A stretch of 52,344 nucleotides of DNA, from sequence record MT446401.1; one strand, given 5' to 3'. The notes below the pieces were generated by a model. That model saw nothing but the letters and a program-made list of their open reading frames with translations. It had not been told where the DNA came from and did not search any database. This stretch comes from Escherichia virus TH27. Positions 23,401 through 52,344 of the stretch are shown piece after piece (the stretch's first letter is position 1; each line of letters opens with the position of its first letter). The position numbers and the translations under genes were made by a program.

Positions 23401-23404
23401 AATA

Positions 23405-30432: not shown

Positions 30433-30433
30433 C

Positions 30434-32956: not shown

Positions 32957-33030
32957 AATACATAGACGGCAACCTTTACTGGATAAAAAGCGGTAAGATT
33001 GCCGGAACACCGAAAGGTAACGGGTACTTA

Positions 33031-33432: not shown

Positions 33433-33469
33433 CACCGTAAATCAAACGAAGTAAACAAAGGTATATATA

Positions 33470-34126: not shown

Positions 34127-34166
34127 TTAACGGGGCTTCGGCCCCATCCAATAAGGAAAATAAAAA

Positions 34167-34589: not shown

Positions 34590-34599
34590 TGTAAAAGAT

Positions 34600-34624
34600 A
34601 AAGCCCCTTTCGGGGCTTTTTTTG
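34600..34624. terminator. Terminator hairpin between convergent genes (T-run on + strand only)
   Basis: aaagcccc-tttc-ggggcttt followed by T-run on + strand; - strand side has only an interrupted run. Confidence 0.8.
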
Positions 34625-36835: not shown

Positions 36836-36860
36836 AATTGTAAATCCCTAATTTAGTTGA

Positions 36861-36889
36861 TAGCACGATTTGCTAAATGCAGTATACCA
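36861..36889 (-). promoter_or_regulatory. Palindromic box with adjacent TG-g-TATACT (- strand), upstream of tail fiber gene
   Basis: Box 36861..36877; -10-like complement at 36881..36889; here the box lies between -10 and gene. Confidence 0.4.
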
Positions 36890-36900
36890 TCTTTCTGGCA

Positions 36901-36923
36901 TAAAAAAACCCGCCGAAGCGGGT
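36901..36923 (-). terminator. Rho-independent terminator (- strand) after primase gene
   Basis: acccgc-ttcg-gcgggt with T7 on - strand. Confidence 0.7.
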
Positions 36924-36928
36924 AATTG

Positions 36929-37873: not shown

Positions 37874-37925
37874 TGCTTTAACTCCAATAAAAAAGGTTGC
37901 ACCAATTATGGCACAACCTTGATTG

Positions 37926-38399
37926 TCATTCTTTAGCTTTTCGTGCTGCTTCGTTTGCTGCTTTAATTTTTCGCCACGATCGACACTCTGGCTTTGTGGC
38001 TAGTTCAGCCTCAGTGACCACGCGCAGCATGTGACGCTTTTTGCACCGCAGAGTAAGTGGCTTACCGTTCCCGTCGAATTGCAGATCCGGTCGGCAGAAT
38101 GTAGCGCGGAACCCTTCGCCAGTTCGCTTATATCGGTTGTGCGCCAGTTGAGCGCCGCGCGCCGACATCATTCCACGCTTAAACCATTCCTCAACTGCCT
38201 GACGAGTAACCTTTAATTGTTTTGCCATGTTCGCCTTGCTGCCGTAGAACTCAAATACAATATCAAGTCGCGCTCTTAATCCGGCCTTTACTTCATCCTT
38301 TAGAACATAGTAACCTGACGGTCGCTTACGCTGCTTCTTATCTTCTGTGCGGATAGTTCCGTTGTTACCGTTAAGAGTACGCTTATCAGTTGCATTCAT
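37926..38399 (-). CDS. HTH DNA-binding protein (157 aa), candidate transcription regulator
   Basis: Helix-turn-helix-like segment ANMAKQLKVTRQAVEEWFKRG; basic; divergent from helicase promoter. Confidence 0.65.
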   Translation of the reverse strand: MNATDKRTLNGNNGTIRTEDKKQRKRPSGYYVLKDEVKAGLRARLDIVFEFYGSKANMAKQLKVTRQAVEEWFKRGMMSARGAQLAHNRYKRTGEGFRATFCRPDLQFDGNGKPLTLRCKKRHMLRVVTEAELATKPECRSWRKIKAANEAARKAKE

Positions 38400-38412
38400 T
38401 TTATCACCTCAA

Positions 38413-38454
38413 TAGCACTTTTTGTTAAACATTGGTTTCGATGGTTGCTATTAT
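38413..38454 (+). promoter_or_regulatory. Palindromic box plus TG-c-TATTAT in divergent promoter region
   Basis: Box 38413..38429; hexamer 38449..38454. Confidence 0.5.
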
Positions 38455-38491
38455 AACGTCAATCGAACGAACATGAAAGGCATTTAATACT

Positions 38492-40594: not shown

Positions 40595-41019
40595 TTACAG
40601 ACAAAGGCGACTACCTGGAGTATTACACTCCAGACAAATCGGATACATGGACCGAAAAAAAACACCAGGTCGATTGCGTGACCTGGACTAATGTAAATCA
40701 CTCTTACCTTCTGTTCTGGCACACCGTTAATGAGGGCAAGAAAACTATGCATTCGGCGCTGGTTGACGCTCAGAGCGGATTATTGAAGGGTGTTAGTGAC
40801 TTTGTATTCCTTCTCGGCCCGTTCGGTAAATATCCTTTCGGGGCCATAGAATTAAAGCGGGTGAATAAGAGTGGGAAAGGCAAAGCATCACCAGTCAGCA
40901 AGGAGCAGAAAGATTTCCTTCGTCGCGTCCGTGAGCGTGGCGGGTTCGCGGCGGTGGCGTACGGCCAGGAGGAATATAAGAAGGCCGTTGCAGACATGCT
41001 GAATAGCACGAATTGCTAA
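40591..41019 (+). CDS. VRR-NUC domain nuclease (142 aa)
   Basis: GVSDFVFL...GAIELKR matches VRR-NUC (PD-(D/E)xK) signature; ends in box-encoded STNC-stop. Confidence 0.7.
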   Translation: MITDKGDYLEYYTPDKSDTWTEKKHQVDCVTWTNVNHSYLLFWHTVNEGKKTMHSALVDAQSGLLKGVSDFVFLLGPFGKYPFGAIELKRVNKSGKGKASPVSKEQKDFLRRVRERGGFAAVAYGQEEYKKAVADMLNSTNC

Positions 41020-41046
41020 AGACGAATCGGTGAAGTGGTGTATTAT
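41004..41046 (+). promoter_or_regulatory. Palindromic box plus TATTAT in hairpin, followed by CATCGAAACGAA
   Basis: Box 41004..41020; hexamer 41041..41046 in gtgaagtg/cacttcat; leader 41052..41063. Confidence 0.5.
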
Positions 41047-41085
41047 CACTTCATCGAAACGAAGTAACAAACAAAGGAAATCAAA

Positions 41086-41358
41086 ATGAAAAAGTCAATC
41101 ATCGCTCTACTGGCAGTTGTGGCAATTGCAGGTTGTGCAGAAGATACCAAGTTTTACGATTGTGGCAAGGAATCCTTTACAGTAACCAAGTCGCAGATTG
41201 TTTCAGATAAGGGCGTTGTTATTGAGCGTGAAGGCGATCACTACGAACTTCAAACTTTCTTAGGGAAGGCGGTTTACAACGTGACTGAAAGTCAGGTTAA
41301 AGTTAGCGTCGGCGGGTTCGTCGCTGTAAACAACTGTAAAGTGACTGAGGTTAAATAA
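41086..41358 (+). CDS. Lipoprotein (90 aa)
   Basis: Signal peptide with lipobox IAGC; RBS AAAGGAAA. Confidence 0.7.
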   Translation: MKKSIIALLAVVAIAGCAEDTKFYDCGKESFTVTKSQIVSDKGVVIEREGDHYELQTFLGKAVYNVTESQVKVSVGGFVAVNNCKVTEVK

Positions 41359-41359
41359 C

Positions 41360-42088
41360 ATGATTGACTCAAACGACAAAGATACTCATGACGCATTCAT
41401 TAGCTTTGAGCAGATTGAGCGTGAAAACTTTGTTACCAATGCGCTTGTTCCTGGCAACGGTCATTACCAGGCGGTTAAGCCGGACACCTTCTATCAGGTA
41501 ACTGGAAATCGATACGCCGGAAGCAAGACGCCTGACGCTGTGCGTGACCTATGGGGAACAGACCGCGAAGTTATCTCATGGATGGAATCGCGTTATGGTA
41601 AGTATGACATTGACGCCGCCGCCAGCGCTAACAATGCTGTTTGCGAGAAGTTCTACAACGAGCAAGTGAACTGCCTCAAAATCTGGTGGGGTAGCAATAA
41701 GCACATCTGGCTTAATCCGCCGTACTCTCATCCAGATCCTTTTGTGAAGAAAGCGATTGAGCAAATGGAGCACAACAATCAGATTGATATGTTGCTTCCT
41801 GGTGATAACTCAACGGCATGGTTTGCAGAGGCTCGACGCAACTCGGCTGAAATAATCTGGATCGAGGCTGACATCACAGAGATTGACAGCCAGGAATATT
41901 GCCGGACGGGGCGACTGGCCTTCATATCTGGACTGACCGGAAAGCCCGTCGATGGCAACAATAAAGGTAGCGTGATTTTTGTCATGCGAAAACTGGAAGA
42001 AGGCGAGACGCAGAAAACTACATACGTTAGCGTCGCTGATATTTGCCCTGGCGTAAGCCGCAAGAAACCACGTAAACGGAGCGTTTAA
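41360..42088 (+). CDS. dam: DNA N6-adenine methyltransferase, Dam-like (242 aa)
   Basis: NPPYS catalytic motif (HIWLNPPYSHPD). Confidence 0.8.
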   Translation: MIDSNDKDTHDAFISFEQIERENFVTNALVPGNGHYQAVKPDTFYQVTGNRYAGSKTPDAVRDLWGTDREVISWMESRYGKYDIDAAASANNAVCEKFYNEQVNCLKIWWGSNKHIWLNPPYSHPDPFVKKAIEQMEHNNQIDMLLPGDNSTAWFAEARRNSAEIIWIEADITEIDSQEYCRTGRLAFISGLTGKPVDGNNKGSVIFVMRKLEEGETQKTTYVSVADICPGVSRKKPRKRSV

Positions 42089-42089
42089 G

Positions 42090-42320
42090 ATGAGCAGTGT
42101 ACAAATTAATTTAACCGACAAATGTCAGTATCTTTTATTCCGCGCCATCGTTTGTGAGGTGTTAACGAAGGCAGGGTTTAAGGGTGACGCCTGGGAGTTC
42201 TCAGATTTGGATATGTCATTCGAAGAAGTGCAGGATCAGCCTATTAACACATGGGCTAAAGCAATACGAAAGGATATGGAAGACTATAAGCGAGATTGCC
42301 CCGAAGATTTCGCAGAATAG
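42090..42320 (+). CDS. Small acidic protein (76 aa)
   Basis: ORF; stop TAG is first triplet of downstream box. Confidence 0.6.
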   Translation: MSSVQINLTDKCQYLLFRAIVCEVLTKAGFKGDAWEFSDLDMSFEEVQDQPINTWAKAIRKDMEDYKRDCPEDFAE

Positions 42321-42360
42321 CACTAATTGCTAAACATACCCGCCACCGCGCGGGTATACT
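42318..42360 (+). promoter_or_regulatory. Palindromic box TAGCACTAATTGCTAAA plus TATACT after hairpin
   Basis: Box 42318..42334; hairpin acccgc/gcgggt; hexamer 42355..42360. Confidence 0.5.
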
Positions 42361-42392
42361 TCCATCATACCAACTATAGACGAGGAATCACC

Positions 42393-42626
42393 ATGAAGAA
42401 GCAACCTTTTAGCACCTACAATCAGTCGGCATATCGTAATAATATTTTATTGCCGCACCTGCTTCGCCTGGCTAATGAGTGCGCAAGTGAAGCTCTGGCG
42501 CTTGGCAAAGATGGTGGGCTTGACGAAGTGATTGCCGTTACTTATCTCAAGGGCGCTTATGGTCACTTGCCGATCGCAGACTATCAAGCTATGTCAGGGA
42601 GCTTTGACATTTATGGTAACTGTTGA
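42393..42626 (+). CDS. Hypothetical protein (77 aa)
   Basis: Internal ATG of track ORF 42327..42626 with RBS GAGGAA; track start lies inside the box. Confidence 0.55.
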   Translation: MKKQPFSTYNQSAYRNNILLPHLLRLANECASEALALGKDGGLDEVIAVTYLKGAYGHLPIADYQAMSGSFDIYGNC

Positions 42627-42861
42627 GGTAGGTCGTCAGGCTGTTTGGAATCACTGCAAGGAGGCAGGAATAAGTGATGATATTGCTCTTATAGCCAAGT
42701 ATTTCGATATTAAAGATATATGCGTCATTTTCAACGGAAAGATGACGTATATACACGAAAGGCCGCGTAAGCTAATCAGGGTTCCGGCAACTCCGGTTAA
42801 GATTGACTACAAGGCTTGCATTCAAGCAACGAAAGACGCAGCGAGGCAGTACAAGAAATGA
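42613..42861 (+). CDS. Hypothetical protein (82 aa)
   Basis: Internal ATG of track ORF 42532..42861; overlaps upstream gene by 14 nt. Confidence 0.45.
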   Translation: MVTVEVGRQAVWNHCKEAGISDDIALIAKYFDIKDICVIFNGKMTYIHERPRKLIRVPATPVKIDYKACIQATKDAARQYKK

Positions 42862-43109
42862 ATTTACCAGGCCTTAATTTTGACGCTGACAAATATCCGA
42901 CTTGCAGCAATAACAATGAGACGTTCGCGATTATCCCTTTCGCTGACTGGTTGCCTTCTGACTTCGAAGATGTGCCATGTTCGCGCGGTGGCGGCTATCG
43001 CATGATGTATTTTAGCCCTTCAACTGGTATGATGGTTCCCAGCGAATCAGAGAGTGCAGGTGAAGCGGTTGAACCAGATACTTTAACAACATGGTTGAAA
43101 AAGATTTGA
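42858..43109 (+). CDS. Hypothetical acidic protein (83 aa)
   Basis: ATGA coupling to upstream gene. Confidence 0.5.
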   Translation: MNLPGLNFDADKYPTCSNNNETFAIIPFADWLPSDFEDVPCSRGGGYRMMYFSPSTGMMVPSESESAGEAVEPDTLTTWLKKI

Positions 43110-43180
43110 TGCTCTGCTTAATTCCTGTATTATTACCGCCGCTAATTGGTTTTATTATCATCTACTTACTAACACGATAA
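43109..43180 (+). CDS. Possible small hydrophobic peptide (23 aa)
   Basis: ATG overlapping upstream stop (TGATG); MLCLIPVLLPPLIGFIIIYLLTR; very short. Confidence 0.3.
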   Translation: MLCLIPVLLPPLIGFIIIYLLTR

Positions 43181-43192
43181 GGATTTACAAAA

Positions 43193-44326
43193 ATGGCTAT
43201 TCAAAAAATAAGTGACGAACAATTCATTGCTGAGCGCGAAGCTGGTAAGACACTTCGTCAAATCGCCCAAGAATATGGGATGAACCTGCGCACCGTAGAG
43301 CAACGCTCAAGTAACCTTGCTCGCAAAGGTCACGGGCATGGAAATAAAGCAGTCTCTAAATATGTTCCTGATGGCTTCATGGTTAAGGCGACTTCAACCA
43401 TGATTGACGCGGAAGGAAATGAGAAAATCCGCTGGATTAAGACCGATCAGGACAAGGAGCGTCAAGCTGAAATGATGCAAGCTGCAATCCAGGCCCTTAC
43501 TGATGAATTACCTCGCGAAAAGGCGAAGGAGCTTAAGGTTGGCAGTTATGAGAATACACTGTCACTTTATCCTGTTTTCGACTTACATATTGGGGCAATG
43601 GCTCACCATGCTGAGTGTGGAGAGAACTACAGCACCGAAATTGCTGAACGTATTCTTAATGACTACTTTGACTATGCTGTAGCTAAAGCGCCAAACTCAA
43701 AGAAAGCGGTATTGTTGATCGGTGGTGACTTCCTTCACTCTGACGGACTTGAGGCGGTGACACCAACAAGCAGGCACTGCCTTGACCAAGACAGTCGATA
43801 TCATAAACTTGTTTATGTTGCTGTAAGGGCAACACGCCGAGCAGTTAGTCGAATGCTAGATAAGCATGAAGATGTTGAGGTTCAGATTATACCTGGAAAC
43901 CACGACCTCTCAGGGATGATTTGGCTTCGAGCTGCAATGGCTGCGTTCTACATGGACGAGCCTCGAGTTAGTGTTGATGCGTCACCAGCTGCCCTTCACG
44001 TTACTAAGTTTGGTAAAACACTTCTTGGTTACTGTCATGGTCATGAGCTTAAAAAGCCAGAAACAAGACTGTCAACGTTGGCGCGAGATCATCGCAAGGC
44101 ATTTGGTGATGCCGAGTATGTTTACACACACAGCGGCCATTTCCACCACCAGACGGTTACTGAGGGAAACCTGGGCATTGATGAGTCGCACGGACAACTT
44201 GGTGCCAAGGATGCTTATAGCGCAAATGGAGGGTATCGCTCTTATCGTCAGGCATCTGTAATCATCTACTCACCAGATCACGGTGAGATTGGACGATTCA
44301 CCTGCAGACCTGAAATGTTTAAGTAA
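43193..44326 (+). CDS. Calcineurin-like metallophosphoesterase with N-terminal HTH (377 aa)
   Basis: DLHIG, GGDFLHSDG and GNHD motifs; N-terminal GKTLRQIAQEYGMNLRTVEQR HTH-like segment. Confidence 0.75.
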   Translation: MAIQKISDEQFIAEREAGKTLRQIAQEYGMNLRTVEQRSSNLARKGHGHGNKAVSKYVPDGFMVKATSTMIDAEGNEKIRWIKTDQDKERQAEMMQAAIQALTDELPREKAKELKVGSYENTLSLYPVFDLHIGAMAHHAECGENYSTEIAERILNDYFDYAVAKAPNSKKAVLLIGGDFLHSDGLEAVTPTSRHCLDQDSRYHKLVYVAVRATRRAVSRMLDKHEDVEVQIIPGNHDLSGMIWLRAAMAAFYMDEPRVSVDASPAALHVTKFGKTLLGYCHGHELKKPETRLSTLARDHRKAFGDAEYVYTHSGHFHHQTVTEGNLGIDESHGQLGAKDAYSANGGYRSYRQASVIIYSPDHGEIGRFTCRPEMFK

Positions 44327-44340
44327 TAGCATTTTATGAC

Positions 44341-44361
44341 AAAGCCCTTCGGGGCTTTTTT
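44341..44361 (+). terminator. Rho-independent terminator
   Basis: aaagcccc-ttcg-ggggcttttttt. Confidence 0.75.
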
Positions 44362-44398
44362 GATATATTAAATTTATCGAAACCAGGAGGTTAGAAAA

Positions 44399-44881
44399 AT
44401 GAATTGGAGTGATGTATTTAATTATAAAGATGGAGTTCTTTATCATGCCGCAAATCCATGCAGAAGGCATGATGTAAATGCTGGTGACGTAGCGGGCAGG
44501 GTTGCTGCTAACGGCTATCACTACGTTGTGCACAAGAACAAGTTCTACAAGCGCTCCAGGGTAGTTTGGGAAATGTTTAATGGTGAAATACCTGATGGTT
44601 TTGTGATAGATCATGTAAATCATGACACTGAGTGTGATCTCATAGAGAATCTAGAGTGCAAACCAAGGCGTGATAACATGGTTAACGTTAAGTTAAGAAG
44701 TGATAGCAGTTCTGGGGTTTCAGGGGTTAGCATGAAGAAAAATGGAAAGTGGAGAGCGTACATAACAATAATGGGAAAACAAAGGTGTAAAGTTTTTGAT
44801 AAATTTGAAGATGCGTGTTCTCAGAGGATAGAGTGGTTGGTTTCCAATGGCTTTCATGAAAATCATGGTGGGGTTTTCTAA
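44399..44881 (+). CDS. HNH-AP2 homing endonuclease (160 aa)
   Basis: DHVNHD...N HNH motif and C-terminal AP2-like segment; RBS CAGGAGG; paralog of 33031 and 49326 genes. Confidence 0.75.
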   Translation: MNWSDVFNYKDGVLYHAANPCRRHDVNAGDVAGRVAANGYHYVVHKNKFYKRSRVVWEMFNGEIPDGFVIDHVNHDTECDLIENLECKPRRDNMVNVKLRSDSSSGVSGVSMKKNGKWRAYITIMGKQRCKVFDKFEDACSQRIEWLVSNGFHENHGGVF

Positions 44882-44883
44882 AA

Positions 44884-44927
44884 TAGCACGAATTGCCTAA
44901 CACTATAGCGTCGAAAGGCGCTATATT
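44884..44927 (+). promoter_or_regulatory. Palindromic box (TAGCACGAATTGCCTAA) plus -10-like TATATT in hairpin
   Basis: Box 44884..44900; inverted repeat ctatagcg/cgctatat. Confidence 0.45.
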
Positions 44928-44954
44928 CATATCTCACTTACAGAGGATTCAATC

Positions 44955-45128
44955 ATGGTTAAATTATTTTGCGTTAAGAACACATCTAAAACCCTTCCTT
45001 TCACTGTTAACAATCCGTACAGCGCCGAGTACCAGGGCGACGGGAACTACAAGATTTACGTCGACGATATGACGTGGATTTTTGCGCCTCTAGATGGCGC
45101 TTTGGTGGAATTTATTAAAGCAGACTAA
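44955..45128 (+). CDS. Small protein (57 aa)
   Basis: RBS AGAGGA; below ORF-track cutoff; followed by terminator. Confidence 0.5.
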   Translation: MVKLFCVKNTSKTLPFTVNNPYSAEYQGDGNYKIYVDDMTWIFAPLDGALVEFIKAD

Positions 45129-45153
45129 GTTATAAAAAACATGTAGTTGCAAA

Positions 45154-45180
45154 GAGGTGGCCTTTAAGGTCGCCTTTTTT
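45154..45180 (+). terminator. Rho-independent terminator
   Basis: aggtggcc-tttaa-ggtcgcct (two G-U) plus T6. Confidence 0.55.
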
Positions 45181-45203
45181 CGTTTATGTCAAAGGTTAAT
45201 ATC

Positions 45204-45212
45204 TGGTATTAT
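45204..45212 (+). promoter_or_regulatory. Extended -10 (TGGTATTAT) for lysis cassette
   Basis: TGnTATTAT about 30 nt upstream of holin start. Confidence 0.4.
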
Positions 45213-45242
45213 TTAAACAAATAAACTTGACGAGGCCGCAAA

Positions 45243-45458
45243 ATGAAACATTTCTATGACGCAGCCGCCTTATCCGGAAGCGGGGTAGCTATGGGTGGCG
45301 GTTTATCTGACAACACAATAATCGGAATTATCGGCTTAGTGGTAGCCGTGTGCTTTGGTATCTTTGGCGCATGGCTTCGCTGGCGTGATAGCCAGGCTCT
45401 ACATCGTGCGCTGGAGGCTGGCGATATTCGGGAAGCCATGAAAATCAGGAGTAAATAA
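45243..45458 (+). CDS. Holin / pinholin (71 aa)
   Basis: Small membrane protein immediately upstream of SAR-type endolysin; RBS GAGG. Confidence 0.65.
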   Translation: MKHFYDAAALSGSGVAMGGGLSDNTIIGIIGLVVAVCFGIFGAWLRWRDSQALHRALEAGDIREAMKIRSK

Positions 45459-45941
45459 ATGAGCATAAAGAATAAGGTTATTGGCTCCGCTGTTGCTGGG
45501 GCTTTGGCAATATCAGTTCCGTTTCTGAATGAATATGAGGGGGTTGAGTACAGGCCATACAAGGATGTTGCAGGGGTGTGGACGGTTTGCACTGGTATCA
45601 CTGGCTCAGATGTTGTTCTCGGTAAGGTTTACACTCAGCGAGAATGTGACGCCCTCCTTGTGAAGCATTTATCAATTCACCAAAAGGCCGTAGATTCTGC
45701 GCTAAAGGTGGATGTTCCCGTAAGTACCAGGGCAGCGCTATACTCTCTTAGCTTTAACATTGGCGCAAATGCAATGAGAAAATCAACTGTTATCAGGCGC
45801 ATGAATAGTGGCGACCTAAAGGGTGGGTGCAATGCATTCTCCATGTGGAATAAGATTACAGTTAACGGAAAGAAAGTGGTCAGCAAGGGCTTGGTTAACA
45901 GGCGCAACGGGGAGATTGAATTATGTTTAAAGGAATTGTGA
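45459..45941 (+). CDS. SAR-type endolysin, lysozyme (160 aa)
   Basis: N-terminal weakly hydrophobic signal-anchor VIGSAVAGALAISVPF then E...D...T catalytic region (EGVEYRPYKDVAGVWTVCTG). Confidence 0.8.
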   Translation: MSIKNKVIGSAVAGALAISVPFLNEYEGVEYRPYKDVAGVWTVCTGITGSDVVLGKVYTQRECDALLVKHLSIHQKAVDSALKVDVPVSTRAALYSLSFNIGANAMRKSTVIRRMNSGDLKGGCNAFSMWNKITVNGKKVVSKGLVNRRNGEIELCLKEL

Positions 45942-46309
45942 TTGCAGCGGTGATTATGCTTTCTGGTTGCTCTGCTACACCGGCTCTGACTGGTTTAATT
46001 GGCAGTAAGCCAGAAATTAGCGCGCAGGCTGGGGCCGAGAACGTGAAGCAAACGGTAGGCGTTACCGGAAAGGTGGATAAGTCAAACGACAACGACACCA
46101 CTATAAAAGATTCAAAGGTAGGAAAGGTTGATACGTCAAACGGGAAGTCTGTCAGCACCTCAAGCATCAAGGCCGACACCATCATCGCTGATAAGATTGA
46201 GATCAGGAACGATGACTCGAAAGGTAATCTGATTGCCGGACTGGTATTCCTGTTCATCGGCATTGTGATGATTGCTCTTTCAATCTGGCTGGAACGACGC
46301 AAAAAATAA
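45923..46309 (+). CDS. Unimolecular spanin: lipoprotein with C-terminal TM helix (128 aa)
   Basis: Lipobox LSGC after signal peptide; C-terminal TM LIAGLVFLFIGIVMIALSIWL; overlaps endolysin 3' end. Confidence 0.75.
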   Translation: MFKGIVIAAVIMLSGCSATPALTGLIGSKPEISAQAGAENVKQTVGVTGKVDKSNDNDTTIKDSKVGKVDTSNGKSVSTSSIKADTIIADKIEIRNDDSKGNLIAGLVFLFIGIVMIALSIWLERRKK

Positions 46310-46311
46310 AA

Positions 46312-46337
46312 GGAGCCGAAAGGCTCCCTTTTTTTAT
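46312..46337. terminator. Bidirectional terminator between convergent blocks
   Basis: ggagcc-gaaa-ggctcc flanked by T-runs on both strands. Confidence 0.75.
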
Positions 46338-46528
46338 CCAAATCTTTGCACCAGCAGCAATAATTCACCTTCATTATTGCATAGAGTATGCTCATCACGT
46401 CGTCCGGCGCGCATGGATGAGTTAAGCATTGAAAGAAGGGCTTGGTTAAGCCCGTCCTCGCTAATCCCATTCTCAGAACTGCATCTGATTATCGCGTCGA
46501 TTACAACCTGGCTTTCCGAATAACTCAT
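46334..46528 (-). CDS. Possible small protein (64 aa)
   Basis: ORF ending at terminator; 5' end overlaps upstream gene by 56 nt; weak RBS. Confidence 0.3.
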   Translation of the reverse strand: MSYSESQVVIDAIIRCSSENGISEDGLNQALLSMLNSSMRAGRRDEHTLCNNEGELLLLVQRFG

Positions 46529-46847
46529 TATCGCTCATCTTCTCTATGTTCATCATCTCCCATGTATAGCGATCATTCTCACCGCCATAGCACCTGAAAT
46601 GAAATTCAAACGGCCTTTTTTGCGCCCCTTTGGACCAGTACCAGTTGTTTACGCCGTCAATGTATCCTTCGCCCATGCATCTTGCGATGAACTCCTTTGA
46701 GGCTGATGACGCGAAATAGCGAGGAGTAACGCCTGCGGCCTTAGCCAGTCGCTCACACTCCCTGTGCTTGTATATGAATACCGCCAGGTGCTGACGGTTG
46801 AATTTTTCATAGCCTTCGCAAAAACGGTACAGGTCCAGAAGAAACAT
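46473..46847 (-). CDS. Hypothetical protein (124 aa)
   Basis: ORF immediately downstream of the 527-aa gene on - strand. Confidence 0.6.
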   Translation of the reverse strand: MFLLDLYRFCEGYEKFNRQHLAVFIYKHRECERLAKAAGVTPRYFASSASKEFIARCMGEGYIDGVNNWYWSKGAQKRPFEFHFRCYGGENDRYTWEMMNIEKMSDNELFGKPGCNRRDNQMQF

Positions 46848-46850
46848 TAT

Positions 46851-48434
46851 TTACCCCAGCAATCTCGGATTAATGTAAATTTTATCACCAATCAGGCACG
46901 TATAGTTTTTCTCATCCAGCATAGGGATCAGGTGATCTTTGATGCGAGTCATTACACCAGCCTGGCCCTCGAATGGCTTAACCTTACGCGCCGCTTCATA
47001 TAGGGATCGGACACCTACAACGCCTTTCCCGTTCTTTCCTTGCTTTATCAGAATGTCAATCAGCTTGTTCATCTCCGCATGGTCGCCAGCGTGACCAGCA
47101 GCGTTGGCAGATGACAGATAAGTTTTACTGAGTTCCTGGAACATGATTACAGCTTCCTGCATTGTGTCAAGCTCAATCTCCCTGGACTTCTGCGGGCTTC
47201 CGCCATTTGGATTAAACCAGTTACGCACAGTGTGAAGAACTGCCGCGATCCTGATGGCCTGCTTATCGAACTTACCAAGCGCGCCGCGCAGCATTGTGTG
47301 TGAATACTTCCCGCCGTCCGCAAGGTGAGGCTCCATATCCTGACGCGCACGGTTGAGATATTTCATCGCCGACGTGCTAACTGTCAGATTCACTTCGTGC
47401 TCGCTCATGATTTCATGGACCAGCCGGAAGTAGTCCGCCTTGAGTCCGCCATCAATCGGCTCGTATGTTGATTCGCCTTTTTCGTCAACGAATACACGCT
47501 CGCCAAGGAATGACTTCTCACGCACAAGCAAGAAACGTTCTGACACACCGATACCACGCGCACCAGCATTCATGATCGCGTTGATTGTTTCATCCTGTGC
47601 AATTACAGAGATGCAACCCATCGCAATAAAGCTCATGTTATTGTCTGCGTTCGCACGCGCGATAGATACGTTACCAGCATCCCATGCTTTCAGCACAAGC
47701 TCGCTGTTCGTTTTCTTTGAGCCGTCACCATAGGTCATGCCTAAAAGTGAGTTCACGCTCGTTGCTTCATCCGAGATCACAGAGAAATTACCCTGGCGGT
47801 TGTTGATTCTCGCAAGACCTTCCGGCGTGGTGTCGGATACGGGGAATACGATGTCACAAAGGCGTTCCAGTTTTTCTTCCAGCTCTTCTTTTTCCTCAAA
47901 CAGCGCCGCCATGTCAGATGGTGATTTCTCCTGCTTCATCTCCTTGGATAGAGCGGAAAGCTTAGCCATAATCTTCTTGCGGTCGCGCTTTCTGATCTCG
48001 TTGAGTCGTTCAGTCTCTGCGATCATCGGGGCCAGCGAAAGTGAGTTAATGGCTGATTTACCCGTCGATGGCGGCTGACTGGTTACGACGTAGAGAGCGG
48101 TCGGCTGTTGTGTTCCGTGATACTCAACAGTAAAGCGGCCAAGCATGGCGGCTGATATGCATCCAAGGAAGTGCATATATGCGGACGACTCAGGGAACTG
48201 TACCGAACGAGCAGCATTGCTTGACAGCTTACCAACGACATCATAATCATTGCCAAGTGAGATAACCGGATACTTGTCACCGCCTGAGTCGATTTCTGTT
48301 GGAGCTTTCCAGAACGACTGGCTTTGCCTGTACCCGTTGGCGTTGATGGCAACGCGCAGAGGAGGCAGGTTGTCGGCAGCAGCTACAGCCATCACCTGAT
48401 CGATAGACAATTTATCTTCGTTAAAATCAAACAT
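46851..48434 (-). CDS. P-loop protein with C-terminal winged-helix-like domain (527 aa), possible replication/primase-associated protein; full-length paralog of 1046..1579
   Basis: Start 48434 chosen (RBS AAGGAG; MFDFN matches paralog start); Walker A-like PPSTGKS; function uncertain. Confidence 0.75.
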   Translation of the reverse strand: MFDFNEDKLSIDQVMAVAAADNLPPLRVAINANGYRQSQSFWKAPTEIDSGGDKYPVISLGNDYDVVGKLSSNAARSVQFPESSAYMHFLGCISAAMLGRFTVEYHGTQQPTALYVVTSQPPSTGKSAINSLSLAPMIAETERLNEIRKRDRKKIMAKLSALSKEMKQEKSPSDMAALFEEKEELEEKLERLCDIVFPVSDTTPEGLARINNRQGNFSVISDEATSVNSLLGMTYGDGSKKTNSELVLKAWDAGNVSIARANADNNMSFIAMGCISVIAQDETINAIMNAGARGIGVSERFLLVREKSFLGERVFVDEKGESTYEPIDGGLKADYFRLVHEIMSEHEVNLTVSTSAMKYLNRARQDMEPHLADGGKYSHTMLRGALGKFDKQAIRIAAVLHTVRNWFNPNGGSPQKSREIELDTMQEAVIMFQELSKTYLSSANAAGHAGDHAEMNKLIDILIKQGKNGKGVVGVRSLYEAARKVKPFEGQAGVMTRIKDHLIPMLDEKNYTCLIGDKIYINPRLLG

Positions 48435-48487
48435 TAAAAAACTCCTTAGTTGGTGCGCTAATGTTAACGCACCTATGGTAAAACCGC

Positions 48488-48503
48488 TTGCCAAAAAATG
48501 CTA
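48488..48503 (-). promoter_or_regulatory. Variant palindromic box (TAGCATTTTTTGGCAA) after stop of upstream gene
   Basis: Read on - strand directly after stop at 48505; followed by hairpin ggtgcg/cgcacc. Confidence 0.35.
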
Positions 48504-48504
48504 C

Positions 48505-48858
48505 TTATTTGTATTGCGATTCCCAGCGGTATGTTCCGCAAAGTGATACGAAACCAACATCTTCATCACGGTAAAGCTGCCATGCATGACCTTCATTGTC
48601 GAAGATGTAACCAGCATTACTGCCCAGACCAGCGTGCATATCCACTAAATATCGCTTACCTTCAGTGAAATCCTTTTTAACGGAGGACTTATGATTGACC
48701 TTTGTCACGTAAAGGGTTTTAGTCTTAATGTAGCGACCTTTGATGTCCAGGTTAACCCACTTACCATTGACTTTAATTTGCTCTACCTCATCTTTAATGC
48801 GGGCTTTAAAAAGTTTATTATCTGAACTTACAAAATTCTTGCTTATCGTGGTAGCCAT
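48505..48858 (-). CDS. Hypothetical protein (117 aa)
   Basis: RBS AAGGGAAAATAA; downstream of box/-10 module. Confidence 0.7.
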   Translation of the reverse strand: MATTISKNFVSSDNKLFKARIKDEVEQIKVNGKWVNLDIKGRYIKTKTLYVTKVNHKSSVKKDFTEGKRYLVDMHAGLGSNAGYIFDNEGHAWQLYRDEDVGFVSLCGTYRWESQYK

Positions 48859-48896
48859 GATTATTTTCCCTTAGTGTGTTTCGTTTTGATGAGATG

Positions 48897-48939
48897 AATA
48901 TACAGGAAAAGCCCCGAAGGGCTTTAGCAATTAGTGCTA
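48897..48939 (-). promoter_or_regulatory. Palindromic box plus -10-like TATATT (- strand) with CATCAAAACGAA leader
   Basis: Box 48923..48939 supplies stop TAG of the 50-aa gene; 20-nt gap; hexamer complement 48897..48902. Confidence 0.5.
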
Positions 48940-49089
48940 TTTCTTTGCTGCTTTTGCAATTGCCTTTTGCGTGATGTTGAAGCTCTCGATCAAATCTTCC
49001 TTGAAATAATCGCCAACGGGCCAACCCTTACCGCTGTACTTAGCTATGGTATCAAGATCGTAGTAGTTCAAATCGGATGGCTTGAGCAT
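48937..49089 (-). CDS. Small protein (50 aa)
   Basis: ATG right after upstream TAA; RBS AGGTGA; stop TAG is first triplet of the box; below ORF-track cutoff. Confidence 0.5.
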   Translation of the reverse strand: MLKPSDLNYYDLDTIAKYSGKGWPVGDYFKEDLIESFNITQKAIAKAAKK

Positions 49090-49329
49090 TTATTTCACCT
49101 CGTCAAACGTTGCGATTCCAGGGATAAACATTCCGACCTTCCAGCCTGCGATAGCAATCCAGCCAGAATCGTGCTTGTGCGGTCGCTCAGCGCCATTAAT
49201 CACCCACTCGTTCGGGATTGTCTTACCGTTAATGATTAGCGGATCAGCGTCGTATACAGAGCCTTTTACGAATGGCGTTAAGACCTTCTTGTCGGTGCTG
49301 CTGATGCAATTTGTGCATATCACTTTCAT
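49090..49329 (-). CDS. Hypothetical protein (79 aa)
   Basis: ATGA coupling with upstream HNH gene. Confidence 0.65.
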   Translation of the reverse strand: MKVICTNCISSTDKKVLTPFVKGSVYDADPLIINGKTIPNEWVINGAERPHKHDSGWIAIAGWKVGMFIPGIATFDEVK

Positions 49330-49844
49330 AATTTACCGCCATGATTTTCGTTAAAGTTAAATATTTTATTTGCCTCATTCCTTGCGGCAACCGCATCATC
49401 AATGTTCTTAAATGTTCCAAGTTTGCGATTTACTCCATTACTAACAACTTGAGCAACAAAAACCTCATCTCTTTTACACCAATGTATTCCAGTGTGCCCG
49501 CTTTTATTGTCACTCCTGATTTTCTGGTTTTTTGCGTTACCTGATTTATCTGTCATTGATAGATTCTCTATCCTGTTATCATCCCTGATCTTGTTATTAT
49601 GGTCTATAACCTTGGTAACATCCGGTTGTCCTTTGAATATAAACCATACAATCCTATGAGCCGTGAATCTCTCGCCCTTGAATCCCACAAGCCTATATCC
49701 AGTGGCTTTACTTATGCAGCCACACTCCCTTCCTGTTCTATCTATTTGCTTTCTTGATGGTGGTGTTTTCTTCCAATAAAGCCTGCCGTCAATGTATTCA
49801 ATATAATCAACTATATCCTCCGGTATCTGCTTTGCTACTTTCAT
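49326..49844 (-). CDS. HNH-AP2 homing endonuclease (172 aa)
   Basis: YIDGRLYW..., HRIVW, IDHNNKIRDDNRIENL motifs; AT-rich; paralog of 33031 and 44399 genes. Confidence 0.75.
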   Translation of the reverse strand: MKVAKQIPEDIVDYIEYIDGRLYWKKTPPSRKQIDRTGRECGCISKATGYRLVGFKGERFTAHRIVWFIFKGQPDVTKVIDHNNKIRDDNRIENLSMTDKSGNAKNQKIRSDNKSGHTGIHWCKRDEVFVAQVVSNGVNRKLGTFKNIDDAVAARNEANKIFNFNENHGGKL

Positions 49845-49853
49845 GGTCTCGCC

Positions 49854-50069
49854 TTAGAACGGTATTCCGTCGTCAAATTTTAAGCGGTAGTCGAAGTCAT
49901 CCCCGATTCCGTCTACTGACTGGTTGCTTTCGCTTTCAAGATCCATATCCATAACGCCCAATGCGTCATCGAGTTCAATGCATCCGTAAGCAACCTTGAG
50001 CGCCCACTCTTCATTGAGTCCGGCTTTAAGTGCCGCGCGGTGGCGGCTCCAGAAATTATCTTGATGCAC
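49854..50069 (-). CDS. Small acidic protein (71 aa) ending in SSB-like tail FDDGIPF
   Basis: GTG start 3 nt after upstream stop with GGAG upstream; C-terminal DFDYRLKFDDGIPF-stop. Confidence 0.6.
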   Translation of the reverse strand: MHQDNFWSRHRAALKAGLNEEWALKVAYGCIELDDALGVMDMDLESESNQSVDGIGDDFDYRLKFDDGIPF

Positions 50070-50072
50070 TGT

Positions 50073-50297
50073 TTAGCTCCAGGAATTGATGTAAAGTGAG
50101 TTATCGTTTAACAGGTTAACCATCTCTGCGCTGGTGAGGCTACGGATGATTGCGCCCGGATGCGTGCCAACAACGTAGCGATCGAACTCACGGCGCGTGA
50201 TGGTGATTTGGCTAACGCCTGCGGAGCGGTCCAGTTTGATGATTGCACGGCCTTTGGCTTCGATGTGAGCGACTACGTTCTGAACTTTAACTGACAT
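50073..50297 (-). CDS. Hypothetical protein (74 aa)
   Basis: RBS AAGAGGAAG; preceded by about 185-nt leader with two direct repeats. Confidence 0.7.
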   Translation of the reverse strand: MSVKVQNVVAHIEAKGRAIIKLDRSAGVSQITITRREFDRYVVGTHPGAIIRSLTSAEMVNLLNDNSLYINSWS

Positions 50298-50328
50298 TTT
50301 TACTTCCTCTTAGGTTTTGATGTGGTTT

Positions 50329-50424
50329 TCGTTGCTCCGGCCTACGTTTGCAACTTCCTGCCTTGTGGGTTTGCCACATCGTTTTGAAACGTCTTTCGTT
50401 GCTCCGGCCTACGTTTGCAACTTC
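50329..50424 (-). repeat. Two copies of a 29-bp direct repeat (50329..50357 and 50396..50424) in the leader of gene 50073..50297
   Basis: tcgttgctccggcctacgtttgcaacttc occurs twice, 67 bp apart; each copy has gttgc/gcaac inverted repeat and TTGCAA. Confidence 0.8.
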
Positions 50425-50458
50425 TCACCCTTCGTGAGTGTTTCGTTTCGATGAAATG

Positions 50459-50501
50459 ATTATGCCTCAATCCGTGAGGCTTCGTTTAGCAATTCGTGCT
50501 A
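50459..50501 (-). promoter_or_regulatory. Palindromic box plus -10-like CATAAT (- strand) with CATCGAAACGAA leader
   Basis: Box 50485..50501 directly after stop of 50503..50934; hexamer complement 50459..50464; leader 50442..50453. Confidence 0.5.
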
Positions 50502-50502
50502 T

Positions 50503-50934
50503 TTACCGATTTTTCGGTGGGCGGCGAACATAAGCGTAAAACGGCGTCGGACCGATTGGCGGCTGATAACCAGTCAGGAGGCGATTACTTGCTTCCGTGG
50601 CGCGCGAAACTGCTACGTTCTGTTGAACGGCTGCCACCTGGCCTCGGCGGAACAACCGACTTTTGCTCATTCGTTGGTTAGTGCCACATAACTCCATATA
50701 CTGATAATCCCACGGATCGAGCGCAACTCTCTTATCCATGAACACCTTGCGGCTACTGGAAACGAACACCTTACTATCCTTTAGTCGTGCAGCGCGGCGG
50801 AACATCTTATACGTCGCCTCATGCATTTGAACCTTAAAGCGCCAGGCTCCGTAAGCCCAAATATACATCCGGAATGATGTCGTGACGAAGCGGGTAGTGC
50901 CGTCAGTGTGCTTGTAAATTACGCCGTGTTTCAT
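50503..50934 (-). CDS. Hypothetical basic protein (143 aa)
   Basis: ORF ending at palindromic box. Confidence 0.7.
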   Translation of the reverse strand: MKHGVIYKHTDGTTRFVTTSFRMYIWAYGAWRFKVQMHEATYKMFRRAARLKDSKVFVSSSRKVFMDKRVALDPWDYQYMELCGTNQRMSKSRLFRRGQVAAVQQNVAVSRATEASNRLLTGYQPPIGPTPFYAYVRRPPKNR

Positions 50935-50944
50935 TTGCCTTCCC

Positions 50945-51154
50945 TCAGATTAGTGAAATTTCGACGGTGATTTTCGCCTGACCAATTACCCGCGCACCGC
51001 CAGACAACAACGCGCATTCAATGATGTGCCCATCCATCGCGGTTGTTTGTGATGGCAGACCATCCACCATGCGGAAGATTTCGGACCGTGAGTTGTCGCA
51101 ACTGATCAGATACTCGTTGCCGCTCCCGATAAATTGCACAATGTCAAACATCAT
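50945..51154 (-). CDS. Hypothetical protein (70 aa)
   Basis: Start moved to ATG at 51154, which overlaps upstream stop (ATGA). Confidence 0.55.
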   Translation of the reverse strand: MMFDIVQFIGSGNEYLISCDNSRSEIFRMVDGLPSQTTAMDGHIIECALLSGGARVIGQAKITVEISLI

Positions 51155-51336
51155 TTCTGTAGCTCCGTTTCGTAGTATTCGTAGGTATTGAACCGATCTG
51201 TTGCGTTCATCTTCTCGCAAACCTGCTCAGCCATTTGCTCACTGAGGCACACGCAGTGAAAATGAGAATCATATTCCGGCCCGCGTGGCTCAGCCATCAC
51301 GACGTAGCAATACATTTTAACAGTGGTCATGATCAT
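51151..51336 (-). CDS. Hypothetical protein (61 aa)
   Basis: ORF coupled to neighbours on - strand. Confidence 0.5.
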   Translation of the reverse strand: MIMTTVKMYCYVVMAEPRGPEYDSHFHCVCLSEQMAEQVCEKMNATDRFNTYEYYETELQK

Positions 51337-51614
51337 TTCTTCCCGTCGAATGTTAAATAGTTAGCCTGTAAAGTAATGCCGTAGTCATGAGCGATGGTCG
51401 TGTGCGGACGGACGATGATAATCACCTTATCCGTTTTCTTGTCACGCAGAACAGAGTCGCCATTCTCAAAGATGCAGACAGTTCTATCAGTAATGCCTTT
51501 AGTCACTTCAATGCATCCGTAGAATCGCTGCACTGCACGGATTACCGCGTCGTTCTGTTTAGCCTGAACCTCAACCTGCATACGGTAGGCCATTTGCTGA
51601 ATATCGTGTTTCAT
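51333..51614 (-). CDS. Hypothetical protein (93 aa)
   Basis: ORF coupled to neighbours. Confidence 0.6.
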   Translation of the reverse strand: MKHDIQQMAYRMQVEVQAKQNDAVIRAVQRFYGCIEVTKGITDRTVCIFENGDSVLRDKKTDKVIIIVRPHTTIAHDYGITLQANYLTFDGKK

Positions 51615-51796
51615 GCTTTTGCTCTCTTAGTTGTCATCCAATCGTGTAGCGCCTGAACGTCATCGGCGAATACACTCGCCTGCTTATCACTTGCGCCGCG
51701 CTTCTTCGCGTATTCAACCGCCTTGACGCGATCTCCATTGTACAGGGCAATGCAATCCTCAATGCTCAGGGAACTGGTGTCTTCAAACTTAATCAT
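51611..51796 (-). CDS. Hypothetical protein (61 aa)
   Basis: Start moved to ATG at 51796 with RBS AAGGAG; first gene of right-end leftward operon. Confidence 0.55.
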   Translation of the reverse strand: MIKFEDTSSLSIEDCIALYNGDRVKAVEYAKKRGASDKQASVFADDVQALHDWMTTKRAKA

Positions 51797-51807
51797 CTTC
51801 TTTCTCC

Positions 51808-51869
51808 TTCGTTTCGATGTGATGAATGATATCCAATTCAATCTGATCGGTCATTAGCAAAAAGTGCTA
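51808..51869 (-). promoter_or_regulatory. Palindromic box plus -10-like element (- strand) with CATCGAAACGAA leader
   Basis: Box 51853..51869; leader complement 51808..51819. Confidence 0.45.
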
Positions 51870-51897
51870 TTCGTTCGATTTATGGATTGTTGCAGCT

Positions 51898-51990
51898 ATT
51901 GCAATGATTCACTTCACTATTGCACATATAGCAATATTGCATCGTTTGCAATGATGTTTTCAATTGTTGCGAATTGAGCAATGATTCATT
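51898..51990. repeat. Cluster of TTGCAATGAT-like direct repeats spanning the start of the terminal repeat
   Basis: ttgcaatgattc, ttgcacatatagcaatattgcat, ttgcaatgatg, gagcaatgattc within about 90 bp; non-coding. Confidence 0.6.
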
Positions 51991-52344
51991 GATGGGGGGA
52001 ATGATGGGGTGAGATTCGATCCCATGATCGCCTGGTGGGATTTTCCCGCCACACATTTCATCTATGTACGCGTTATGGTTTGTTCAACTTTGTAGATATT
52101 TGGCAATGTCTACGCCATTCACGCGGAATTACGCGCTGGTTACAAAATAAATCCCTTATATAACAACCTTTTATCTATATTATTATTATTATTATTATTA
52201 TATGTTATTCCGTAACCAAGATTAATTGGGATATTGATGATATTTTTTTTGATATTGCGCGGCGCATGAAAATTGGCATAAAGAGATGGATATGCAAGTA
52301 GGGCAAAAAAGTGATGTACATCGTTCTACGGCAATAACATCCTT
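51943..52344. repeat. Right copy of 402-bp direct terminal repeat (matches 1..402)
   Basis: Visual comparison with 1..402. Confidence 0.85.

What the first reader, a model, noticed from the sequence alone, without database searches (positions are those of the whole stretch)
51898..52344. 402-bp direct terminal repeat beginning inside a TTGCAATGAT repeat cluster
1..402 matches 51943..52344, so the window carries a direct terminal repeat; this could be a true terminal redundancy or an assembly overlap of a circular or circularly permuted genome. The repeat begins in the middle of a cluster of TTGCAATGAT-like units (51898..51990). A boundary placed inside a repeated motif would be consistent with a packaging initiation (pac) site or a terminase recognition site. 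The hexamer TTGCAA also appears in the 29-bp leader repeats and in the putative leftmost promoter.
Basis: partly seen in the sequence, partly recalled or inferred. Interest (0 to 1): 0.5.

Follow-up and report, generated by a model that had tools for sequence, protein, structure and literature searches.

The report
T1-like phage packaging-start region, duplicated ends
The 402-base repeat at both ends of this T1-like coliphage genome is most likely just a way of writing a circle-closing junction, not a fixed virion end. It does start inside a conserved array of four palindromes that marks where T1-like phages begin DNA packaging.

Summary
In detail: bases 1-402 equal 51943-52344 exactly, so the unit genome is 51,942 bp.

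The window is a T1-like coliphage of the family Drexlerviridae, nearest the genus Nouzillyvirus. Its terminase subunits are orthologues of those of phage T1, and its small subunit belongs to the P22 gp3 family. Both phages package by the headful (pac) mechanism. An independent assembly of the same phage (run SRR11772971) carries one copy of the 402 bp and reads straight through both boundaries.

A fixed 402-bp virion repeat is therefore unlikely (about 0.1). The repeat most likely represents the junction of a terminally redundant, partly permuted headful genome.

The "TTGCAATGAT cluster" is really four 15-bp palindromes, TTGC-N7-GCAA, at 51890, 51920, 51937 and 51967. They are conserved in register across Drexlerviridae subfamilies. 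The repeat starts inside the third one.

The starts or ends of the T1, Rtp, ESCO41, Sf12, Rao1, UDF157lw, SU57 and TLS records all fall within about 170 bp of this array. Three of these (UDF157lw, SU57, TLS) come from read-start or restriction mapping. The pac-region reading is supported circumstantially.

Which protein binds the palindromes is unresolved. Read mapping of SRR11772971 would settle the nature of the ends.

The parts
1..402 (.). Left copy of the exact 402-bp terminal direct repeat
   Evidence: Identical to 51943-52344.
51943..52344 (.). Right copy of the exact 402-bp terminal direct repeat. The unit genome is 1..51942.
   Evidence: Logan contig SRR11772971_1658 carries a single copy and reads through both boundaries with 0 mismatches over 5,594 nt.
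51890..51904 (.). Palindrome site 1, TTGCAGCTATTGCAA. The ESCO41 and XT34 records start exactly here.
51920..51934 (.). Palindrome site 2, TTGCACATATAGCAA. Position 1 of the Rtp record corresponds to 51930, inside this site.
51937..51951 (.). Palindrome site 3, TTGCATCGTTTGCAA. The repeat starts at 51943 inside it. Position 1 of the T1 record corresponds to 51936, the dyad centre of the four-site array.
51967..51981 (.). Palindrome site 4, TTGCGAATTGAGCAA (also present as 25-39 in the left copy)
51990..52013 (+). Purine-rich GATGG/AATGA repeats, also present as 48-71. The Rao1 and UDF157lw records start at the equivalent of about 52012-52014. Position 1 of TLS lies in the homologous module.
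51855..51869 (-). Palindrome TAGCAAAAAGTGCTA. It is the leftward copy of a genome-wide promoter-associated repeat family and is invariant across relatives.
51826..51854 (-). Promoter-like site for the leftward operon (ATGACC-17-TATCAT)
   Evidence: conserved in the alignment.
51611..51796 (-). First gene of the leftward operon (61 aa, no family match)
168..203 (+). Three (T/C)ACGC repeats about 10 bp apart, followed by TTACAA. Conserved across the family.
236..259 (.). (TAT)8 microsatellite within an AT-rich tract
   Evidence: conserved with variable unit number.
474..501 (+). Promoter-like site for the rightward operon (TTGCAA-16-TATGAT with TG)
534..1046 (+). First rightward gene, DUF7174
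9639..10175 (+). Small terminase subunit, P22 gp3 family
   Evidence: Pfam GP3_package; PDB 3P9A, E = 3e-15; 57% identical to T1 TerS.
10172..11758 (+). Large terminase subunit
   Evidence: 62% identical to T1 TerL over its full length; Terminase_6C.

Best explanation
The window is the complete genome of a T1-like coliphage (Drexlerviridae, near Nouzillyvirus), written with 402 bp duplicated at the two ends. The unit genome is 51,942 bp.

The phage most likely packages DNA as T1 does. The terminase recognises a pac region on concatemers, cuts within a zone of roughly 100 bp, and fills heads rightwards by the headful. This gives virion DNAs that are terminally redundant and partly permuted.

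On this reading the 402-bp repeat is a record-level representation of the circle-closing junction, either an assembly overlap or a curated end. It is not a fixed virion repeat.

Its left boundary is not random. It lies inside a conserved, dyad-symmetric array of four TTGC-N7-GCAA palindromes followed by purine-rich GATGG repeats. This array sits in the 680-bp divergent intergenic region between the two early operons.

I infer that this array and the adjacent repeats are the packaging-initiation (pac) region. I infer that the palindromes bind a dimeric protein, most plausibly the small terminase, and that cutting occurs in and just right of the array.

Shown: the repeat, the array and its conservation, the terminase orthology, and the clustering of relatives' termini. 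Inferred: cleavage at this place in this phage, the identity of the binding protein, and the origin of the 402-bp length.
For: 1. The repeat is exact.
2. TerL is 62% and TerS 57% identical to those of T1. TerS belongs to the P22 gp3 family. The T1 record annotates a 2,800-bp terminal repeat region starting at position 1.
3. The literature reports pac-headful packaging with partial permutation for T1, TLS, SU57 and UDF157lw (PMC11447400, PMC7718038, PMC10838988).
4. The Logan assembly of SRR11772971 gives a 51,904-nt contig of the same phage with one copy of the 402 bp. Its ends lie elsewhere, at 50357/50395, and are explained by an exact 31-nt repeat equal to the assembler's k.
5. Four palindromes lie within 92 bp, P about 3e-7. 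They keep the same 30/17/30 spacing in 23 distinct related sequences. Half-sites are 96.7% conserved and spacers 86%.
6. Relatives' termini, in window coordinates: ESCO41/XT34 51890, Sf12 repeat boundary about 51911, Rtp 51930, T1 51936, this window 51943, Rao1 52012, UDF157lw 52014 (PhageTerm), SU57 about 52045 (PhageTerm plus a coverage step). TLS's restriction-mapped pac lies in the homologous purine-rich module.
7. The window's start matches none of those conventions exactly, so it was not copied from another record.
8. A paralogous divergent intergenic region at 31362-31903 shares the ACGC-repeat and AT-rich module but lacks the palindromes and GATG repeats. Those two elements are therefore specific to the junction region.
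Against: - No read data were available, so no physical end was observed in this phage.
- A length of 402 bp is not a usual assembler k-mer overlap, and I cannot say which process produced it. If the depositor added it from a PhageTerm 'DTR' call, both boundaries could be real.
- How position 1 of the T1 and Rtp records was chosen could not be checked, because those papers are not held. Part of the clustering of termini may be convention.
- The read-based termini (UDF157lw, SU57) lie 70-100 bp to the right of the window's start, not at it.
- The palindromes lie 60-150 bp upstream of the leftward promoter and could be regulator sites instead.
- TLS has a different palindrome at the same position, yet its TerS shows evenly spread divergence (44% identity). 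This gives no sign of a swapped DNA-binding region.
Confidence: 0.55

Rival explanations
1. True short direct terminal repeat. Virion DNA has fixed ends at 51943 and 402, and each molecule carries the 402 bp twice, as in T7-type or T5-type packaging.
For: - The record carries the repeat at both ends, and 402 bp is not a typical k-mer overlap.
- The left boundary falls in a conserved, non-random place.
- The unit genome of 51,942 bp is at the top of the family's size range and about equal to T1's unit length plus redundancy (48,836 + 2,800). Headful redundancy would then have to be small if capsid capacity is similar to T1's.
Against: - TerL and TerS are close orthologues of the T1 headful enzymes, and TerS is of the P22 gp3 family.
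- No relative shows the same pair of boundaries. Sf12's record repeat is 257 bp with different ends. ESCO41 has none.
- The right boundary at 402 lies in a non-conserved stretch with no recognisable motif.
- Published experiments on T1-like phages show permuted, redundant DNA.
Confidence: 0.1
2. Pure assembly artefact with arbitrary boundaries. The contig ends carry no biological information, and the position inside the palindrome array is coincidence or a break caused by strain variation.
For: - An independent assembly breaks elsewhere and reads through both boundaries.
- Short metagenomic contigs of close relatives do end at the edges of this conserved block: L034 and L035 at about 51843-51849, and L032 in the microsatellite.
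- The repeat starts in the most variable part of the array, the spacer of site 3.
Against: - A random break lands within the 92-bp array with probability of about 0.002.
- Sf12's record repeat also starts inside the array.
- Known variant positions (51941, 51944-46) do not coincide with 51942/51943.
- The palindromes and short repeats are far too short to break a k>=21 graph.
Confidence: 0.2
3. The palindrome array is a transcriptional operator set or a replication origin element of the divergent early region rather than the packaging signal. The termini cluster nearby only because pac lies in the adjacent purine-rich repeats.
For: - The array lies 60-150 bp upstream of the leftward promoter-like site.
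- The phage encodes predicted regulators: 30732-31361 (Ant/Rha-like) and 37926-38399 (phrog_2856).
- TLS carries a different palindrome pair at the same position, as expected for a swappable regulator and operator pair.
- The read-based and restriction-mapped termini lie to the right of the array.
Against: - No strong promoter overlaps the sites.
- The paralogous divergent region at 31.4-31.9 kb lacks them.
- The T1, Rtp, Sf12 and window termini fall inside the array itself.
Confidence: 0.3

Closest known systems
Phage T1 pac site and terminal redundancy (Tunavirus T1, NC_005833)
   Same: The genome layout is the same: a ~680-bp divergent intergenic region, first rightward gene at about 535, and terS/terL about 9 kb downstream. 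TerL is 62% and TerS 57% identical. T1 has palindrome sites 3 and 4 at positions 2-16 and 32-46, followed by a G-run. T1 position 1 aligns 7 nt from the window's start.
   Different: T1 lacks sites 1 and 2. Its record annotates a 2,800-bp redundancy but does not write it twice. The first genes on each side are not homologous.
Phage P22 pac / gp3 small terminase headful system
   Same: The small terminase belongs to the same family (Pfam GP3_package, PDB 3P9A). A spread of end positions over about 100 bp matches what I recall of the P22 series of end sites (from memory, Casjens and co-workers).
   Different: P22 pac is a 22-bp asymmetric sequence inside the terS gene (quoted in PMC11447400). 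Here the candidate region is intergenic, about 9.6 kb upstream of terS, and is built of palindromes.
Phage P1 pac site
   Same: Short repeated elements lie symmetrically on both sides of the position where ends map.
   Different: The P1 elements are TGATCA/G hexamers whose Dam methylation controls cutting (from memory). The palindromes here contain no GATC, and GATC occurs at the expected frequency. The terminases are unrelated.
Phage TLS pac region (Tlsvirus, NC_009540; PMC11447400)
   Same: The order of modules is the same: the TAGCA-N5-TGCTA promoter element, then palindromes, then purine-rich GATG/GATT repeats, where the restriction-mapped pac was placed.
   Different: TLS has two tandem TAGACCGATTGGTCTA palindromes instead of four TTGC-N7-GCAA. 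Its pac was assigned to AGATTT by resemblance to P22.
Shigella phage Sf12 record (MF158039)
   Same: It carries an exact terminal direct repeat at the same locus, starting inside the palindrome array.
   Different: The repeat is 257 bp, not 402. Its left boundary is about 32 nt further left. Its other boundary lies in the (AT)n tract, which looks like an assembly break.

Membership tests
pac-type headful packaging (T1/P22 type) | Small terminase of the P22 gp3 family | tested here: met
   Pfam PF16677, 34.6 bits against a cutoff of 29.4; PDB 3P9A, E = 3.4e-15.
pac-type headful packaging (T1/P22 type) | Large terminase orthologous to an experimentally headful phage | tested here: met
   62% identity to T1 TerL over 528 aa.
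pac-type headful packaging (T1/P22 type) | Virion DNA terminally redundant by several percent and partly circularly permuted | not testable with these tools
   This needs reads or virion DNA. It is reported for T1, TLS, SU57 and AHP24-type relatives.
pac-type headful packaging (T1/P22 type) | One preferred initiation region where first-headful ends map | tested here: inconclusive
   Relatives' termini cluster at 51890-52057 in window coordinates. Nothing was measured for this phage.
Fixed-end direct terminal repeat genomes (T7/T5 type) | Same sequence at both physical ends of every virion DNA | not testable with these tools
   Only the record shows the repeat. An independent assembly collapses it, which happens under either model.
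Fixed-end direct terminal repeat genomes (T7/T5 type) | Terminase related to those of fixed-end packagers | tested here: not met
   The terminase is orthologous to the T1 and P22-type headful enzymes.
Fixed-end direct terminal repeat genomes (T7/T5 type) | Repeat boundaries conserved in relatives | tested here: not met
   The Sf12 repeat has different boundaries. ESCO41 has no overlap. The right boundary at 402 lies in non-conserved sequence.
Assembly overlap of a circular contig | Exact identity of the two copies, and a second assembly with one copy | tested here: met
Assembly overlap of a circular contig | Overlap length equal to the assembler's k, or boundaries at arbitrary places | tested here: inconclusive
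   402 is not a usual k value, and the assembler is unknown. The left boundary is in a non-random place.
P1-type pac | Repeated elements contain Dam (GATC) sites | tested here: not met
   There is no GATC in 51890-51981. The nearest are at 51845, 76 and 84.

The most novel reading that the evidence does not exclude
The dyad-symmetric array of four TTGC-N7-GCAA palindromes, together with the adjacent purine-rich repeats, is the so far undefined pac recognition site of T1-like phages. It would be bound by the P22-gp3-type small terminase far from its own gene, with the first cut made around the array's centre. TLS-type phages would then carry a swapped specificity, TAGACC-N4-GGTCTA.
Probability: 0.3. 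Interest if true: 0.5.

Novelty: new member of a known kind. Interest (0 to 1): 0.3.

Why it matters
The repeat itself changes little. It tells an annotator that the true genome is 51,942 bp and should not be described as having a fixed DTR without read evidence.

The useful by-product is a sequence-level candidate for the T1-family pac region. Recent papers still say the pac site was "not identified" (SU57, PMC7718038) or assign it by weak resemblance to P22 (TLS, PMC11447400).

A conserved, testable array would help in three ways:
- orienting Drexlerviridae genomes consistently,
- interpreting PhageTerm output,
- designing pac-carrying plasmids for T1-type transduction.

Tried and rejected
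1. Searched IMG/VR for the window's own sequence and for relatives with repeats. Two scans gave 2 and 11 loci. The only new case was Sf12.
2. Scanned metagenome contigs with the central palindrome pair. Of 106 hits, almost all were chance matches. Four were true arrays, and none lay at a contig end.
3. Looked for a protein whose type co-varies with the palindrome type.
   - The first rightward gene (DUF7174) is not shared with T1.
   - TerS of TLS diverges evenly.
   - The small leftward genes have no family matches.
   - No conclusion was possible.
4. Tested phage lambda. From memory (Drexler 1984), T1 starts packaging at a site between lambda P and Q. That region has no TTGC-N7-GCAA. There is only a 13-nt match to the T1 junction inside gene P, and the overall score is at shuffle level.
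5. Looked for known RNAs or tRNA fragments in the repeat. None were found. Folding of the array is unremarkable, z = -2.1.
6. Tried to read the T1 (PMID 14972552) and Rtp (PMC1367250) genome papers to learn how position 1 was set. Neither is held.
7. Searched papers for the run accession and the genome length. Nothing was found.
8. Considered that co-occurring strains created the repeat boundaries. The known variant positions do not match the boundaries.

Full report
**Observation**

Bases 1-402 and 51943-52344 are identical, and no other overlap length between 300 and 600 bp fits. The unit sequence is therefore 51,942 bp.

The motif cluster is also real, but TTGCAATGAT is not the best description. 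With one mismatch allowed it is not enriched genome-wide: 13 matches against 7.5 expected.

What is enriched is a 15-bp palindrome, TTGC-N7-GCAA. The genome has eight copies against about two expected. Four of them lie at 51890, 51920, 51937 and 51967, with start spacing of 30, 17 and 30 bp. Finding four in 92 bp has a genome-wide chance probability of about 3e-7.

The four sites are arranged symmetrically about 51935/51936, where GCAATATTGC is itself a palindrome. The terminal repeat begins at 51943, inside the third site (TTGCAT|CGTTTGCAA).

**What the genome is**

The ends of the window match T1-like coliphages at 85-92% identity in patches. The closest are members of the genus Nouzillyvirus: TH21, TH30, P817, 50EP and ESCO41.

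The small terminase (9639-10175) belongs to the P22 gp3 family and is 57% identical to T1 TerS. The large terminase (10172-11758) is 62% identical to T1 TerL.

T1-like phages are reported to package by the pac-headful route and to have redundant, partly permuted DNA. The T1 record itself annotates a 2,800-bp repeat region from position 1.

**Where the repeat sits**

Closing the circle gives a 680-bp intergenic region. It lies between a leftward operon (start codon at 51796) and a rightward operon (first gene 534-1046, DUF7174). From left to right it contains:

| Window position | Element |
|---|---|
| 51826-51854 | Leftward promoter-like site |
| 51855-51869 | Palindrome TAGCAAAAAGTGCTA |
| 51890-51981 | Four TTGC-N7-GCAA sites |
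| 51990-52013 | Purine-rich GATGG/AATGA repeats |
| 168-203 | Three ACGC repeats about 10 bp apart |
| 236-259 | AT-rich tract with a (TAT)8 microsatellite |
| about 300-470 | Variable stretch |
| 474-501 | Rightward promoter-like site |

The repeat covers everything from the middle of site 3 to the variable stretch. Its right boundary at 402 lies in sequence with no conserved motif.

**Conservation**

The four sites keep the same register in Nouzillyvirus, Braunvirinae (Rtp, SU57, JeanPiccard, AugustePiccard, IME542), Rogunavirinae (Opt-79, phiEB49, Sf12, e4/1c) and several metagenomic contigs. T1 keeps sites 3 and 4.

In 23 distinct sequences, half-sites are 96.7% conserved, spacers 86%, and inter-site DNA 88%. 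The spacer of site 3 is the most variable part.

TLS lacks these sites. At the same place it has two tandem copies of a different palindrome, TAGACCGATTGGTCTA, again followed by purine-rich repeats.

A second divergent intergenic region in the window (31362-31903) shares the ACGC-repeat and AT-rich module (74% identity over 80 nt). It has neither the palindromes nor the GATG repeats. Those two elements are therefore specific to the junction region.

**Termini of relatives, in window coordinates**

| Record | Window coordinate | Basis |
|---|---|---|
| ESCO41 and XT34, record start | 51890, first base of site 1 | How the start was chosen is not known |
| Sf12, boundary of its 257-bp terminal repeat | about 51911 | Record repeat |
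| Rtp, position 1 | 51930 | Not known; paper not held |
| T1, position 1 | 51936 | Not known; paper not held |
| This window, repeat start | 51943 | - |
| Rao1, record start | 52012 | Not known |
| UDF157lw, record start | 52014 | PhageTerm, classed as headful with a pac site (PMC10838988) |
| SU57, record start | about 52045 | PhageTerm end at an abrupt coverage change (PMC7718038) |
| A 44,234-nt IMG/VR genome, record end | about 52057 | Not known |
| TLS, position 1 | Homologous purine-rich module | pac mapped by restriction analysis (PMC11447400) |

These termini span about 170 bp. That is what a pac region with imprecise cutting would give.

Some of these starts may be convention rather than measurement. 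I could not read how position 1 of T1 and Rtp was chosen. The window's start equals none of them, so it was not copied from another record. A random break would fall within the 92-bp array with probability of about 0.002.

**Is the 402-bp repeat a virion feature?**

The window's proteins are held by NCBI on a 52,344-bp record and by Logan. The Logan contig from run SRR11772971 is 51,904 nt and identical to the circularised window over the 5,594 nt fetched. It carries one copy of the 402 bp and passes both boundaries.

That contig's own ends lie at 50357 and 50395. They are explained by an exact 31-nt direct repeat, equal to that assembler's k. This shows the sequence closes into a circle or concatemer. 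It does not by itself separate a collapsed true repeat from a permuted genome.

Four points argue against a fixed repeat:
- the headful-type terminase;
- the lack of shared boundaries in relatives (Sf12 has 257 bp with other ends, and ESCO41 has none);
- the featureless right boundary;
- the published biology of the family.

Three points keep it open at about 0.1:
- the odd length;
- the non-random left boundary;
- a unit genome about as long as T1's unit plus redundancy (48,836 + 2,800), which would leave little room for redundancy if the capsids are alike.

**Mechanism**

I commit to the following model, with confidence of about 0.55 for the whole and higher for its parts. The junction region is the pac region. 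A dimer-binding protein occupies the four palindromes. The terminase cuts in and to the right of the array, and packaging proceeds rightwards.

The small terminase is the most economical candidate for the binding protein, but I could not support this:
- TerS of TLS is evenly 44% identical to the window's TerS.
- The first rightward gene is not shared with T1.
- The small leftward genes have no matches.
- Two predicted regulators exist elsewhere in the genome.

The rival view, that the palindromes are operators and pac proper lies in the purine-rich repeats, remains plausible at about 0.3.

**Comparison with known systems**

The system works like T1 and P22 pac-headful packaging, and the terminase passes the membership tests for that family.

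It differs from P22 in that the candidate site is intergenic, far from terS, and palindromic. It resembles P1 pac in having repeated elements on both sides of the cutting zone, but it lacks the defining GATC content.

It fails two of three features of fixed-end DTR genomes. The third could not be tested.

**Novelty and score**

The terminal repeat is ordinary. The conserved array as a candidate T1-family pac signal appears not to be described in the papers I could read, and it can be tested directly. I rate this a new member of a known kind, with interest 0.3.

Noticed in passing
1575-1603, 3400-3428, 7114-7142, 33389-33417, 41002-41030, 42316-42344, 44882-44910 (+); 2339-2363, 3654-3678, 4908-4932, 5793-5817, 7740-7764, 38408-38432 (+); 30742-30764, 31429-31451, 48923-48945, 50485-50507, 51852-51872 (reverse orientation): About 18 copies of a repeat built on the palindrome TAGCAC-N3-TTGCTA (ATAGCACGAATTGCTAAAC or ATAGCACTTTTTGTTAAAAC) lie upstream of genes, always in the direction of transcription. 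A TATnnT hexamer follows about 22 nt after TTGCTA in the copies inspected. This looks like a phage-specific promoter or operator family and matches the '21-base repeats' reported for TLS.
   Followed up: partly
31362-31903, especially 31540-31619: A second divergent intergenic region carries a 74%-identical copy of the ACGC-repeat plus AT-rich/(TAT)n module found at 179-258. It also carries a TTACATTAAGCTATAGCTGGGCTG motif that relatives have in their junction region. The function is unknown; it could be a regulatory or origin-like module.
   Followed up: partly
50314-50357 and 50381-50424: A 44-nt direct repeat (89% identity, with a 31-nt exact core) lies 67 bp apart in an intergenic stretch. 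It explains where the Logan contig of the same phage breaks.
   Followed up: yes
1046-1579 and 46851-48494: The second rightward early protein (177 aa) and the C-terminal part of the 547-aa helicase hit the same PHROG families (7327 and 2373). The early gene therefore looks like a stand-alone copy of the helicase C-terminal domain.
   Followed up: no
33031-33393, 44399-44881, 49326-49844: Three HNH endonuclease genes of the same PHROG (99) are scattered through the genome.
   Followed up: no
L040/L045 (Shigella phage Sf12, MF158039, ends of the record): The GenBank record of Sf12 carries an unannotated, exact 257-bp terminal direct repeat at the homologous locus. One boundary lies in an (AT)n tract.
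   Followed up: yes
L023/L022 (phage TLS, last 135 nt and first 60 nt of NC_009540): TLS has two tandem TAGACCGATTGGTCTA palindromes where other T1-like phages have TTGC-N7-GCAA. This suggests a swapped binding specificity.
   Followed up: partly
whole window: The unit length of 51,942 bp is near the top of the Drexlerviridae range (relatives seen here: 43-52.1 kb). It is about equal to T1's unit plus annotated redundancy. Either the capsid holds more DNA than T1's, or the terminal redundancy is small.
   Followed up: no
236-259: The (TAT)8 microsatellite is conserved in position across the family. Its length differs between relatives, and it is a break point for some metagenomic contigs (L032).
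   Followed up: partly
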